This document shows, piece by piece, positions 10,847 through 58,300 of a stretch of DNA of 64,000 bases. The stretch lies in the NCBI RefSeq assembly GCF_006345805.1, contig NC_043015.1, positions 4,216,001-4,280,000 of the forward strand. The letters run 5' to 3'. Under the pieces are notes generated by a model. It did no database searches, was not told the origin of the DNA, and worked only from the letters and a program-made list of their open reading frames with translations. Positions within the stretch are counted from its first letter, which is position 1. Each line of letters begins with the position of its first letter. The position numbers and the translations under genes are program-made. This stretch comes from Octopus sinensis. Taxonomy: Eukaryota.

Positions 10847-10987
10847 TATATATATATATATATATATATATTATATATATATATATATATATATATATAT
10901 ATATATATATATATATATATATAGGTCTCGGGGTTAACCACGGTAAATAAGGTACTCAATACATAGCAGAGTAAATTAATTCATTTG

Positions 10988-11100
10988 ATAGAAGGAGTTT
11001 CTACAGGACTAGAACTGTTTCATTCAAATGAAATCATCAGGAAGCTTCTGATGATTTCATTTGAATGAAACAGTTCTAGTCCTGTAGAAGCTCCTTCTAT
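10988..11100. ncRNA. Fold-back pair of type-I hammerhead ribozymes (one per strand) in a PLE pseudo-LTR remnant (element 10924-11108)
   Basis: Two 53-bp arms with 1 mismatch. Each reads CTGATGA-tttcatttgaat-GAAA-CAG ttctagtc CTG-TA-gaa(g/a)ct. Confidence 0.75.
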
Positions 11101-12488
11101 AAAATAATATATATATATATATTATATATATATATATATATATATATATATATATTGGAAGGTTTGGAGATGATGTACATGCATTTTATATTAGAAAAAA
11201 TGAGGTACTCAGAAATTTAGATCGTTTTATATTTACAGATATACATCATATAACTTAGGTCATATATTAGCGCTTTCTCTCATTCTAGTGGGGTTTTCAA
11301 ACCGAACAAGGTATGTATGTATATATATATATATATATATATATAATATATATATATATATATATATTATATATATATATATATATAATGTTAAAGAGGA
11401 CAACAAATACTAACGCAATACGAACTTCTCAACTCATATATGGTATTATTAAAAAAATATTGTCTTACACCTGTTTGTGGGATGACCCGAAATATATGAT
11501 ACTCCTTCATCGGAGAAAAATAGAGAAAATGTGACGGGCATTAGATGAAGGAAACGATAAAATAAAAGACTGGAGAAAAGGAATGAAGAAAAAAAAAGAA
11601 ACAAGAAGCATAAAAGTTCAAAGTTCAACTCTCCAAGTGTGCAGCTTTTAGTCCATAAGCCTTTAGGTGCAATCCAATGTGTATCCATTTACGGTTACAG
11701 CATTCATACTGTAAATGTTCAGGGATAAACGCGAACATATCCATGGTTCATAAGAGAATAAAAGAAAGACTGTGTCAAAAATACTGAATTCTGATTATAT
11801 TTTTAAAAACGTGCGTGCATACACACATTCACACATGCCTACGCACACGTGCACAGACTCACGCATAGATTCAAACACACACACACGTAACCCGTTCCTG
11901 CAGTGAAAGTCGAATACTTCAGTACAGACCATAATTATGAAAGGCACCTCTACCTCGATACCCTATATTCGTAGGCACATAGATATGACAAAATAATACA
12001 GACCGTATGTTTGAAATAAAGGTTTAAAAAATAATCTCATCATGTTATCTTTTTATTGCATTCCGGTTTTTGGTTAGTAAACCCCGATAGGATTATAGGA
12101 ATTTTTTCAGAAAAAATGTTTACTATTGCTAGAAATGCTATGCATTTGACTGTGTTAGATAGATGCATTTGATGATATACATATTCACGTGTTGATGAAA
12201 CGTGTCAAAACAACTTAAAATCTTAAACGGAAAGCAACTGCTCATTATTTGACATCGCACAAAATAGTGTGACTTTAACTATAACAATATGTGTTAGCAG
12301 TTCGAATGTTCGATGGGGAAATATTAGGGATGTATAATATATTATTTTATCATGCTTCATTAGTGAAAAAAATTGTCCAAGGTGTACCATACTTCATTTG
12401 TAAACTGCAACTCCATTAACAATATACAATTGCACATTTCGGACAGTCCTTCTAAATATATTACCGAATGATTTGTATTTTCTGTCAG

Positions 12489-12713
12489 GCTACAAAAACA
12501 CATTTAATTTCAATTGACCTCAAAAATGATTTACTTTCAACAAAAGAACTTTATGTAGAGAGCAAACAACGTCTAAACTGTCAGAAAATGCCGCTGAATT
12601 TTCTTCAAAGCAGTTGTGGAACGGATAGTCATAACAAGGATTTTACCACACATTCGCTTAACGGAACTGGAATAACAAAAAATATGCTACATGTGCAATT
12701 ATGTACAATGTAG
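12489..12713 (+). CDS. Possible terminal coding exon, unknown protein
   Basis: Acceptor TTTTCTGTCAG|; 74 open codons of non-repetitive sequence; AATAAA at 12772. No recognisable homology. Confidence 0.2.
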   Translation, partial: ATKTHLISIDLKNDLLSTKELYVESKQRLNCQKMPLNFLQSSCGTDSHNKDFTTHSLNGTGITKNMLHVQLCTM

Positions 12714-54965: not shown

Positions 54966-55286
54966 TCGGTCACGACACAGACCATGTGATTGCACATAGA
55001 AAGTTACCCTCCTAGACACAAGTCCGGGCGAAGTTCTTTATGGAAGACCAGCAGTCGTCCATGCATACCAGCCTCCCCTCACCACGCCACCAGTGTTACC
55101 CAAGGGAAAGACAAAGGTCGATACAGCTTGGCACCAGTGACGTCGCAACTCATTTCTACAGCTGAGTGAACTGGAGCAACCTGAAATAAAGTGCCTTGCT
55201 CAAGAACACAATACGCAGCCCGGTCCGGAATTCGAGCTCACAGCCTCACGATCGTAAGTTCGACGCTCTAACCACTGAGCCATGCG
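54966..55286 (-). mobile_element. SINE family D (tRNA head + CORE-like + Deu/Nin-like segment)
   Basis: Minus strand TGGCTCAGTGGTTAGAGCG..CTCGAATTCC; TGTGTTCTTGAGCAAGGCACTT; CCAGTTCACTCAGCTGTAGAAATGAGT. Confidence 0.8.
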
Positions 55287-55335
55287 TAAATATAAATGGT
55301 GCACGGCTGATATACAATCGTGTGTTGGAACAGAT

Positions 55336-58300
55336 ATTGTTGTATTTCGGGATGGTCATTTTTTTCTTTGCAAAATAAACACAGGCACCCTATATTTATT
55401 CTTCACGTGCTAATTATTGTTCTTATTCTAACTCACGTCCATTGTTCGGAAGTCTTTCGTCACTCATCTGTGACCGCTCCAGCAACACTTTTTGTCTTCA
55501 CGTGTCTTCTTGCGCCACTTACTCCATTTTGCTCCTCAATGATGTATATATGCATCCGTGAGTGAATGTTTGCTTGTGTGCGTGTCATAGTCGTTAGCAG
55601 CCGTAAAACTTCCCTCTAAGCCCCGTTGTCGAAACTTTGGTACAGTTCTTCTGTCTCACTGTGTTTGCGTGTTCGCCCACGGTGTTTCCATCGTGTTACT
55701 TGTTGTTTTTGCCATCGCAGTCACCGCCGACATTGTCGTTGTTAGTTGTGTTTTTGATATTGCTGCAGCCGTTTGGGAAGTTATTTTGTGTGTGTTTATG
55801 AGTGTGTATGGGCTCACTTCTTATTTTGCTTGCATCAATGACATTTATACAGATTTATTTATCTATTTCTTATCTATCTTGTTCTTATAATTATCACAGA
55901 TATGTGACACAATATATTTCTTTTTATTTTTCCCTATCTCTACTTCTTATATACACCAGCAGTCTGTGTATATATATTTATTCGGTGTATATTACTCTAT
56001 GTATTATGTATTATTATTATATTTTTCCTCTCTCTTCTCCTACGTTCTGTCTTTAGTCACCTGGTGTGGTGTGTTGGTGGGTGTTATTGTTCCATTCCTG
56101 TTTTCTATTGTGCCTCGGCGGGTCTACTGCAATGTGTAGCCTCTGTGATCTGTATAAGTGTTATATCAGTTCTATGCATCGATAATACTTTAACTCCTAT
56201 GCTATTAATCCAGCCTCTATATTCTGCCTGAGCCTGTTGGTAGAGCATTGATAAGTCTTTCTGTTCCTTTGAGGTGCCGCCATTTTCACGTATACGCTCT
56301 TCTATGCCTATGCTGCATGCGGTCTTTCCAGTGTAGTTACCTGTCAAGTTTCTTCACCATCCCTCAGTACATCGGAAACTATACATTATATTCTTAATCT
56401 TACAGTTAACCGTGAGTTCATCCTACATAGAATGGCGACTTATAAATGGGATACAACAACAATATCAAATGGACATAACAACAATAAGAATAACGATGGA
56501 ACTACAAAGGAGAACAAACACTTAGAGATAGTGAGGTAGAAGCACGTCAAACGTAGGGGTCAGAATACCCATGGTGGTAACAGTGAAAATAATGAAAACA
56601 AATGCAGGGTCATCAGAATGGGATATAATAGCCACAAGGTTAATGGTGGGGCAGGTAGCAGCAACAACTATGAGAATAAGAATATCGGCAATGAGACGGC
56701 GAACATATACCACAATAACGGAAATAACTATGTAAATATGCAAACAAATACAAATATTACTGACAGCAATACACATAGAAACATCACAACCACCACCACT
56801 ACATCACCATCACAACTACCACGCCTCCACCACCACCACAATCACTGCTACCTACTTCACTGCTACACCCTTTGCTAAAAATGTCCCCAGATGTGTGTGA
56901 CAGCACAGAGGACCTACTCATCACAGTCAATGAGTGTAACCGTGTCTGCGACGTAACTGGATGCATAATAAGCAGTATAACTGGAGTACCCCTATACCCA
57001 TCCATTGATGTTGATGTTTCCGTGCAGAAATGTGTGGGGGGTGATCAGCGAGGGCGGTGAAGAATTTCGTGGTGTTGACACAGAAGAACTAGGCTTCCTC
57101 CTGAGACTGGCATGCGACAATGATGACTTAGATAAACATGACCTTAGTTGTTTATACTCCACTAGATCGATAAAAGCAGACCTCTTACCATAATTTGTAT
57201 GGCCAAGAAGACCTCTAAGGAGAGACAAAACGGGACAACCAGAGCTATACGGACCCCCGAAAAGCAATGTCCAGGTTAAAATGAAGGTCGCTCATGCAGT
57301 GGGTGCGAGTAACAAGATCACACTCAAGTGCCATATATTGAAGTTTAATGATTAGACATACGCTCGAGAACAAGGTGACACCATATTTATCAGTACCGCT
57401 TGCGATATGGCTAAGCTATTTGTAGTATGGTGGGATAAGAGACTTAAAGAAAAATTAACAGAGAACTCCATTAGCTTAACCATGTATACCCGCTTTGTGG
57501 ATGATACCAACATAGTAGCTAAAGCACCCCTACAAACAACGTTGATAATTTAGAAGCTAACACTATTGAAAGCATCCAGCAAATAGCTAACTCCATCCAC
57601 CCGAGTATTGAAATAGTGACAGACTACCATAGTAAGCACCCAAACTATAGGTTACACCATTTAAACATAGAACTCTGGCTAGAAACGAAGAATGGTAAGG
57701 TCCAGATTCTTCAAACTTATTATGCCAAAGCCATGGCTTCTAAGTAACTTATTTTCACAAGAACACGGCTATTGCGGACAACAGGTTCAACATTCTTATA
57801 ACTGACTTGAGGAATGTGAGAGTAATGAAGAATGTGTCACGCGTTTGTGACCCTGTTTAATTAGAAAGCCACATAGGTCATTTCATCCACCGCATGCAGT
57901 TCCTTTGCTACAGTAAAATGGTCAAGATGTGAGTGTACAAAAGAGCCAGGACTAAGCAGAAGGCCATCCTAGAGAGTGATGCTAAGGGGATCTGCCAGCT
58001 GCACAGGAGTAAACTCTGGAACAGCACAGGAAGGATTAGAAATAAGATAGATAAGGCCAACATTAAGTATTACATTAAGAAGTAATGTTCGTTGACGCTA
58101 CCCCTGGCGGCAAACTAATCGATCATAAGTAACGCTAATCTACGGATTAAGGTAGTAGAAAGGCTTGGTGCCTCTATAAAATCCCTGATCTGTTGAACCT
58201 ATTACTTTGATAAGCCCCTATGTACGGAGAACAAATGTGTTGTATGTAGAATGAACACACATGTTTACTGTAAGCTTAGGAATATAGCGTATAGCATACG

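What the first reader, a model, noticed from the sequence alone, without database searches (positions are those of the whole stretch)
10924..55490. Diverse hammerhead-ribozyme mini-elements embedded in (TA)n microsatellites
Seen: at least five sequence-unrelated families of 100-650-bp non-coding elements sit in or next to (TA)n tracts and keep the type-I HHR architecture (stem I-CUGANGA-stem II-GAAA-stem III-UH-stem I). Loci are 10988/11048 and 24540; 22435; 36522/36602; 46542 and 55444; and degenerate 28909/36335/47783. Most have inverted-repeat geometry. Known: Penelope-like elements carry minimal HHRs in their pseudo-LTRs, and HHR retrozymes exist in animals. Inference: about 10 HHR loci in 64 kb suggests a very large, (TA)n-targeted population of non-autonomous ribozyme retroelements mobilised by PLE RT/GIY-YIG. 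To my knowledge this is poorly catalogued in cephalopods.
Basis: partly seen in the sequence, partly recalled or inferred. Interest (0 to 1): 0.75.

Follow-up and report, generated by a model that had tools for sequence, protein, structure and literature searches.

The report
Penelope retroelement ends plus one retrozyme
The hammerhead (self-cutting RNA) motifs in these TA repeats are real, but most are the cut-off ends of protein-coding Penelope-like jumping genes, a known pattern, and only one family is a protein-free repeat, which likely borrows their copying enzyme.

Summary
The type-I hammerhead motifs are at the stated places and exceed chance. They are mostly not mini-elements. A and B are Hydra-clade PLEs, for which hammerheads, (TA)n targeting and an octopus member are already published (PMC8557442). 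The inverted repeats are the known PLE 5'-inverted copies. Only D (22030-22667) is protein-free: a young 559-bp tandem unit with one hammerhead each, retrozyme-like. Its insertions end in (TA)n at two fixed points 94 nt apart. All 12 two-armed D insertions pair one of each end, as do B (35 of 37 arm pairs) and simple A loci. This points to copying in trans by PLE enzymes. A 560-kb sample suggests about 10^5 loci genome-wide; the window is about 5-fold denser than that sample. Cleavage and expression are untested. This scan has already reported the same pattern on other DNA of this genome.

The parts
10924..11107 (.). Family A fold-back: long arm (minus, 10924-11047) and short arm (plus, 11043-11107); 3' end of a Hydra-clade PLE, both ends in (TA)n
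   Evidence: parent ORF
10996..11047 (-). Family A type-I hammerhead, long arm (core CUGAUGA; U-U at the base of stem II)
11040..11092 (+). Family A type-I hammerhead, short arm (core at 11048)
11155..11311 (-).
   Evidence: family lies 1.1-1.3 kb downstream of a PLE ORF in L103, L124, L125, L127
22030..22667 (.). Family D retrozyme-like insertion: inverted arm 22030-22197 (long end) and direct arm 22200-22667 (short end); part of a 559-bp protein-free tandem unit
22433..22489 (+). Family D type-I hammerhead; long stem II with internal loop; palindromic stem III
22674..24675 (+). Family A 5'-truncated copy (about 2 kb of the microsatellite-rich 3' UTR plus terminus); hammerhead at 24540-24590
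28911..29058 (-). Family C PLE 3' end; hammerhead-like motif 29002-29037, decayed; family core CUGUNGA (A6U)
36313..36447 (+). Family C PLE 3' end; hammerhead-like motif 36321-36356, decayed
36522..36749 (.). Family B fold-back: short arm (minus, 36522-36594) and long arm (plus, 36602-36749); hammerheads 36553-36593(-) and 36604-36645(+); 3' end of a Hydra-clade PLE
46383..46693 (.). Family E2 two-armed PLE end: inverted arm 46383-46466 with the tail, direct arm to 46693 without it; decayed hammerhead 46540-46584(+)
47783..47895 (-). 3' end of a sister family of C, truncated inside the ribozyme (GAAA half only)
55297..56432 (-). Family E1 decayed PLE 3' part: hammerhead 55443-55487 (core decayed), GIY-YIG remnant 56141-56410
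57409..59771 (+).

Best explanation
These loci are the hammerhead-bearing 3' ends of several protein-coding Penelope-like retrotransposon (PLE) families left in (TA)n tracts as 5'-truncated, often fold-back copies, plus one protein-free 559-bp tandem family (D) that is likely copied in trans by the same kind of enzyme. Shown: the parent coding sequences, TA adjacency, tandem D units, and two fixed 3' end points per family, one on each arm of a two-armed insertion. Inferred: the PLE GIY-YIG endonuclease cuts both strands in (TA)n. The RT then starts at two fixed internal sites of the RNA 3' of the ribozyme, and the stretch between them is the 'tail'. One start is used per strand, both cDNAs stop early and are joined head to head. 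Copying usually stops soon after the ribozyme, which leaves 100-250-bp hairpins that look like mini-elements. The ribozymes are predicted to cut weakly, as dimers or with protein help. D arrays would arise from read-around of a circular or multimeric RNA.
For: A: the junction between ORF end and 3' UTR is in 40 of 40 scored copies at 94-100%. The A terminus lies 3.3-3.5 kb downstream of the ORF in L136, L321, L323, L324, L326. B: ORF about 1.1 kb upstream of the ribozyme; L327 has terminus-ORF-terminus in direct orientation; 638-aa open frame in L332. Hydra motifs: RWK, DKT, YRDD, CxCX5C, CxxC and CxH across B copies; YRDD, CxCX5C, CxxC and CxH in the A fragment (against PMC8557442 section read). 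B's ribozyme has the same stem I and stem III letters as Hydra-2_aMil in File S2, apart from the loop base. C: PLE RT/endonuclease remnants upstream in 5 long copies, best E 3.5e-21. E: endonuclease remnants upstream in L251 (the window), L281, L282, L285, L290, L294. D: arrays of up to about 6 units per arm, units 96-99% identical, longest open frame 115 aa, circular fold z = -6.6 against 40 shuffles. Two-armed D insertions pair one long and one short end in 12 of 12 independent cases (after merging loci of the same insertion). B does so in 35 of 37 arm pairs, and in all 11 pairs from the 10 loci found without selecting for the tail; simple A loci in 12 of 13. B arms within a locus differ less than between loci (3.1 against 4.2 changes, n = 22, p = 0.0017). 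D-type stem II shows compensatory changes in 5 of 7 pairs, covariation score reached by 0 of 500 shuffles. In vitro, a PLE cuts both strands, prefers AT-rich DNA and starts RT at two internal sites that define the tail (PMC11167929).
Against: No cleavage, transcript or circular RNA was shown. Single motifs fold no better than shuffles (z from -1.5 to +0.8 in 10 of 10; only 24546 approaches the three-stem fold). Covariation is weak in E (53 of 500 shuffles reach the score) and rests on one pair in C. The sequences in those alignments were partly picked by the descriptor, which favours pairing. No PLE partner of D was identified and D shows no homology to a PLE terminus among 37 PLE loci. Pfam finds no RT or GIY-YIG in the A and B proteins; their assignment rests on motifs and weak similarity (E about 3e-7) to a Pfam-positive PLE. 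No tree was built. The 5' part of the A ORF was not recovered. A gave 10 long-long arm pairs, all from two multi-copy loci. The window's own B copy has arms that differ more than average.
Confidence: 0.85

Rival explanations
1. All families are self-standing non-autonomous ribozyme mini-elements that spread as short units.
For: Many B copies share a 220-240-bp fold-back form with a similar apex. D and its relative D3 (about 563-bp unit) are protein-free.
Against: A, B, C, E and F run into PLE coding sequence, with 5' ends at many positions. B arms match within a locus, as expected if each hairpin forms anew. The shared B apex is partly selected by my query, which included it.
Confidence: 0.07
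2. D is a satellite that spreads at DNA level (unequal exchange or circle reinsertion), and its hammerhead is a passenger.
For: D forms head-to-tail arrays. No RNA evidence was obtained.
Against: Dispersed copies on many chromosomes, two fixed 3' ends in (TA)n, variable 5' ends and head-to-head inversions match PLE insertions. Stem II covaries across D relatives.
Confidence: 0.05
3. The motifs are chance matches in AT-rich, palindrome-rich DNA, and closeness to (TA)n only reflects how common TA tracts are.
For: TA tracts are common: about 11-14 per 10 kb. No hammerhead family is among the 150 listed Rfam rows (128 lower rows not shown).
Against: 17 hits against 0-2 in shuffles; 72-97% TA adjacency against 4.3%; 16 multi-copy motif clusters with different stems.
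Confidence: 0.02

Closest known systems
Hydra-clade C-terminal-endonuclease PLEs (Craig et al. 2021, PMC8557442), including Hydra-1_Obim and Hydra-2_Amil
   Same: RWK, DKT, CxCX5C linker, CxxC and CxH; hammerhead near the 3' end with unpaired bases flanking stem II; (TA)n insertion; 5'-truncated inverted copies; one-sided tail.
   Different: A and B are other families than Hydra-1_Obim (different ribozyme letters). 3' UTRs are long (B about 1.1 kb, A about 3.3 kb) whereas described Hydra elements are generally under 3 kb in all. Tails are about 70 nt rather than 30-40.
Minimal hammerheads in metazoan PLE pseudo-LTRs (Cervera and de la Pena 2014, PMC4209133)
   Same: Extra base after A9, palindromic or absent loop III, U3-A8 core variant (family F), many families per genome, mostly single motifs from truncated PLEs, opposite-strand pairs 100-700 bp apart.
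   Different: Estimated load of about 8 x 10^4 intact-looking motifs exceeds the 2,000-9,000 per genome quoted there. Family C has U at core position 6, a change not named in the parts I read.
Metazoan non-LTR retrozymes (Cervera and de la Pena 2020, PMC7229834; Li, Clavereau and Pollet 2026, bioRxiv 10.64898/2026.07.22.740005)
   Same: D: protein-free tandem unit, one type-I hammerhead per unit, low GC, strongly self-paired circle prediction, U-U at the base of stem II as in axolotl HHR_Amex2.
   Different: The 559-bp unit is longer than the 170-400 nt of the 2020 paper but inside the 51-972 bp of the preprint. D shows PLE-type two-armed, two-end insertion footprints in (TA)n. circRNA and cleavage were not shown here.
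Poseidon of Anolis carolinensis (Frangieh et al. 2024, PMC11167929)
   Same: Both-strand cutting of AT-rich DNA, two internal RT start sites bounding the tail, uncut RNA used as template.
   Different: There the start sites are adjacent and lie in the ORF start. Here they are 55-94 nt apart in non-coding termini. The one-site-per-arm pairing is not described in the parts I read.

Membership tests
Type-I hammerhead ribozyme | Core CUGANGA / GAAA / UH with stems I-III in type-I order | tested here: met
   A, B and D in the window; E majority; F as U3-A8 variant. Window copies of C and E are decayed.
Type-I hammerhead ribozyme | A at core position 6 (family C) | tested here: not met
   Of 64 motif matches, 54 begin CUGU and 2 more have it behind one extra base; position 7 varies.
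Type-I hammerhead ribozyme | Compensatory changes in stems | tested here: inconclusive
   Strong for D-type stem II, weak for E and C; not counted for A and B.
Type-I hammerhead ribozyme | Self-cleavage | not testable with these tools
   Needs in vitro transcription.
EN+ Penelope-like element (A, B, C, E, F) | RT and C-terminal GIY-YIG coding sequence upstream of the ribozyme-bearing terminus | tested here: met
   decayed in C and E, partial in A, endonuclease part only in most E copies
EN+ Penelope-like element (A, B, C, E, F) | Pseudo-LTR in direct or inverted position, with one-sided tail | tested here: met
   B direct in L327; inverted with tail in A and B and E2; not examined for C and F
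Hydra clade (A, B) | RWK and DKT motifs | tested here: met
   B: RWK at 53, DKT at 129 in L327. A: N-terminal part not recovered, so untested.
Hydra clade (A, B) | CxCX5C linker, CxxC and CxH around the endonuclease E/N | tested here: met
   A all three; B CxCX5C in L328, CxxC and CxH in L332
Hydra clade (A, B) | Placement inside the clade on an RT tree | not tested
   No tree built; published sequences were seen only as cut text.
Non-LTR retrozyme (D) | Tandem units, each with a type-I hammerhead, no protein | tested here: met
Non-LTR retrozyme (D) | Highly self-paired unit | tested here: met
   -148 kcal/mol as a circle, z = -6.6
Non-LTR retrozyme (D) | Expression as linear and circular RNA | not testable with these tools
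   Only assembled contigs of runs of unrecorded type were offered.
Non-LTR retrozyme (A, B, C, E, F) | No protein-coding parent | tested here: not met

The most novel reading that the evidence does not exclude
Two-armed insertions record the PLE mechanism directly: one enzyme dimer cuts both strands of a (TA)n target and primes each strand at a different fixed site of one uncut RNA. The protein-free retrozyme D has evolved the same pair of start sites, so it hijacks a resident PLE, perhaps of the Hydra clade, and its arrays are read-arounds of a circular RNA. Alongside, the most abundant family (C) may carry a working hammerhead with U in place of core A6.
Probability: 0.5. Interest if true: 0.55.

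Novelty: new member of a known kind. Interest (0 to 1): 0.3.

Why it matters
How retrozymes get into genomes, and how PLEs build their inverted ends and tails, are open questions. This genome has young PLEs with long open frames, a young retrozyme with an exact two-end footprint and about 10^5 ribozyme-bearing ends, so it offers ready RNA templates and enzymes for a test. As a catalogue entry it is ordinary: most loci are truncated PLE ends of published type, which repeat annotation may misfile as short interspersed or unknown repeats.

Tried and rejected
Rfam scan: the 150 listed rows are microsatellite-driven miRNA-type and similar matches below their cut-offs; 128 lower rows were not shown. 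The repeat finder was swamped by TA runs, so a masked self-BLAST was used. Sequencing runs for D: no RNA holder listed. Contigs of four runs of guessed or unrecorded type cover parts of the unit, which says nothing on expression or circles. 5' ends at the ribozyme cut site as a trace of cutting in vivo: B 2 of 14 within 4 nt, C 0 of 26, and the A reference failed to build; too few to read. Search for a PLE partner of D: PLE hits in 2 of 32 D loci and 3 of 20 D3 loci, none contiguous with the unit. The B reference failed and was redone. Alignment A1 held one mis-oriented row and was replaced by A2. The paper on dimer-cleaving PLE hammerhead variants (recalled as Lunse et al.) is not held and was not read; it may cover an A6U core. 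The supplement of PMC7229834 could not be read and may list cephalopod retrozymes. The preprint's supplements are closed.
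Full report
Setting. The window is G000:C19:4216001-4280000 in a 2.72-Gb animal genome. TA tracts of 12 nt or more occur at 13.9 per 10 kb in the window and 10.9 in 56 stretches of 10 kb taken at round coordinates on contigs C1-C25, so closeness to TA needed a null.

Observation. Type-I hammerhead order is intact at A (10996-11047 minus, 11040-11092 plus, 24540-24590), D (22433-22489) and B (36553-36593 minus, 36604-36645 plus). 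The copies at 46542 and 55444 have decayed cores, but the majority of 16 aligned copies of each family is a canonical minimal hammerhead. Family C has U at core position 6: of 64 matches, 54 begin CUGU and 2 more have it behind one extra base. Locus 47783 holds only the GAAA half of a sister family. A further family, F (11264-11303 minus), has the U3-A8 core. My descriptor found 3 hits in the window against 0-1 in 20 shuffles, and 17 in 560 kb against 0-2 in 5 shuffles. Termini lie within 10 nt of a TA tract in A 28 of 29, C 21 of 29 and B 28 of 29, against 4.3% of random positions. E scored 6 of 19 and 2 of 24 at the ends first chosen; for E2 that end was the shorter of two, and many copies run on about 55 nt before the tract.

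Abundance. Profiles of the six families find 11 loci in the window and 20 in 560 kb. That extrapolates to about 97,000 loci (Poisson range 59,000-150,000), and the descriptor to about 83,000 motifs (48,000-132,000, uncorrected for about 1 chance hit and for paired arms). The window is about five times denser than the sample, partly because the families were defined from it. Across 1.77 Mb of fetched, non-random loci the descriptor gave 128 distinct motifs in 38 clusters, 16 of them multi-copy.

What the families are. A: the scored copies are 97-100% identical and share a microsatellite-rich body. A 465-aa open frame lies upstream in L136, the junction to the UTR recurs in 40 of 40 scored copies, and the terminus lies 3.3-3.5 kb downstream in five loci. 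The window copy is about 2 kb. B: copies chosen by upstream sequence extend into an endonuclease frame about 1.1 kb upstream; L327 has terminus, ORF, terminus in direct order. Both proteins carry Hydra-clade motifs as defined in the section of PMC8557442 read, which also reports canonical hammerheads and (TA)n insertion for almost all families. Its supplement lists Hydra-1_Obim from an octopus with (TA)n preference and hammerhead. Pfam does not recognise the A and B proteins. C: five long copies carry decayed RT/endonuclease sequence upstream, with a CX4CxxC linker. E: endonuclease remnants lie upstream in six loci, among them the window itself at 56141-56410. F: follows a PLE ORF at 1.1-1.3 kb in four loci. 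The genome also holds other PLE families with 775-883-aa open frames.

D is different. It is a 559-bp unit in arrays of up to about six per arm, 96-99% identical, with no open frame over 115 aa; it folds as a circle at z = -6.6. A relative, D3, has a unit of about 563 bp. No PLE ORF is contiguous with either. Stem II across D, its relatives and four similar motifs shows two-sided changes in 5 of 7 pairs; these rows were partly chosen by the descriptor.

Insertion footprint. Resolved D 3' ends fall at unit phase about 483 or about 18 of the next unit, 94 nt apart, and nearly all run straight into a TA tract. All 12 independent two-armed insertions have one of each (loci of the same insertion merged, array ends cut by the locus edge left out). 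B gives 35 of 37 arm pairs long-short, with the other two in one tandem locus; all 11 pairs from the 10 loci found without selecting for the tail agree. A gives 12 of 13 simple loci; 10 long-long pairs come from two multi-copy loci. The four two-armed elements of the window all fit. B arms are closer within than between loci, as expected if each hairpin is made anew from one RNA.

Mechanism. Shown in print for an Anolis PLE (PMC11167929): both-strand cutting of AT-rich DNA, two internal RT starts bounding the tail, and a protein-assisted ribozyme not needed for insertion. Inferred here: each cut strand primes at one of the two sites, and early stopping plus head-to-head joining leaves the fold-backs. 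D would be a passenger RNA carrying the same two sites, with arrays from a circular or multimeric template. Single motifs fold no better than shuffles, in line with the weak, dimer-dependent PLE hammerheads of PMC4209133. Cleavage and expression are untested.

Literature seen. PMC4209133: parts 1-2 of 4. PMC8557442: passages, section 11, supplement searches and supplement part 2 of 59. PMC7229834: parts 2-3 of 6, supplement unreadable. bioRxiv 10.64898/2026.07.22.740005: parts 1-2 of 5. PMC11167929: parts 1-2 of 4. PMC13282606: passages; it lists 31 recently active Penelope-like families in an octopus and has no 'hammerhead' or 'retrozyme' in its main text. PMC6962438: passages; 235 Rfam hammerheads in giant squid. 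Searches listed no paper on a cephalopod retrozyme; unread supplements may hold one.

Earlier scan notes report Hydra-type ends, retrozymes and the long-short arm pairing on other DNA of this genome. No look-alike of D was indexed. My reading and the D end count came before those look-ups; the A and B arm counts came after.

Verdict. Real features, mostly a known pattern. A and B are new families of a known clade, and D is a new retrozyme-like family whose footprint makes copying in trans by PLEs testable. Interest 0.3.

Noticed in passing
L136:6641-6853 (also L301-L326): An inverted remnant of a D-related retrozyme (77-88% identity) is fixed inside the 3' UTR of the family A PLE, so this PLE lineage once captured a D-like insertion and now carries it along.
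   Followed up: partly
window 29002-29037, 36321-36356; family C loci: The most frequent family in the 560-kb sample (9 of 20 loci) has U at core position 6 while position 7 varies; a sister family with the same stem II keeps the canonical core.
   Followed up: partly
L111-L115, L118, L119: A very young PLE family with 781-aa RT plus GIY-YIG frames (Pfam-positive) and an apparent U3-A8 hammerhead in its terminus; it is not one of the window's families.
   Followed up: partly
window 11200-11215, 24620-24640, 36695-36710: The termini of A, B and F share a short GAGTAC-type motif between ribozyme and 3' end; a similar motif is seen at the end of the published record that carries the Hydra-2_aMil hammerhead. 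Possibly part of the RT recognition site.
   Followed up: no
L371-L390: D3, a second retrozyme-like family (about 563-bp unit, about 68% to D), with the same two-armed TA insertions.
   Followed up: partly
window 5208-5936 (-): A 242-aa frame resembling the 3' part of an RTE-type LINE reverse transcriptase (resemblance recalled, not searched).
   Followed up: no
window 27147-27190, 28640-28727, 45050-45252, 59855-60139: Further small palindromes or inverted pairs in the masked self-comparison with no hammerhead hit.
   Followed up: no
window 46895-46994: A 100-base assembly gap lies just beyond the E2 element.
   Followed up: no
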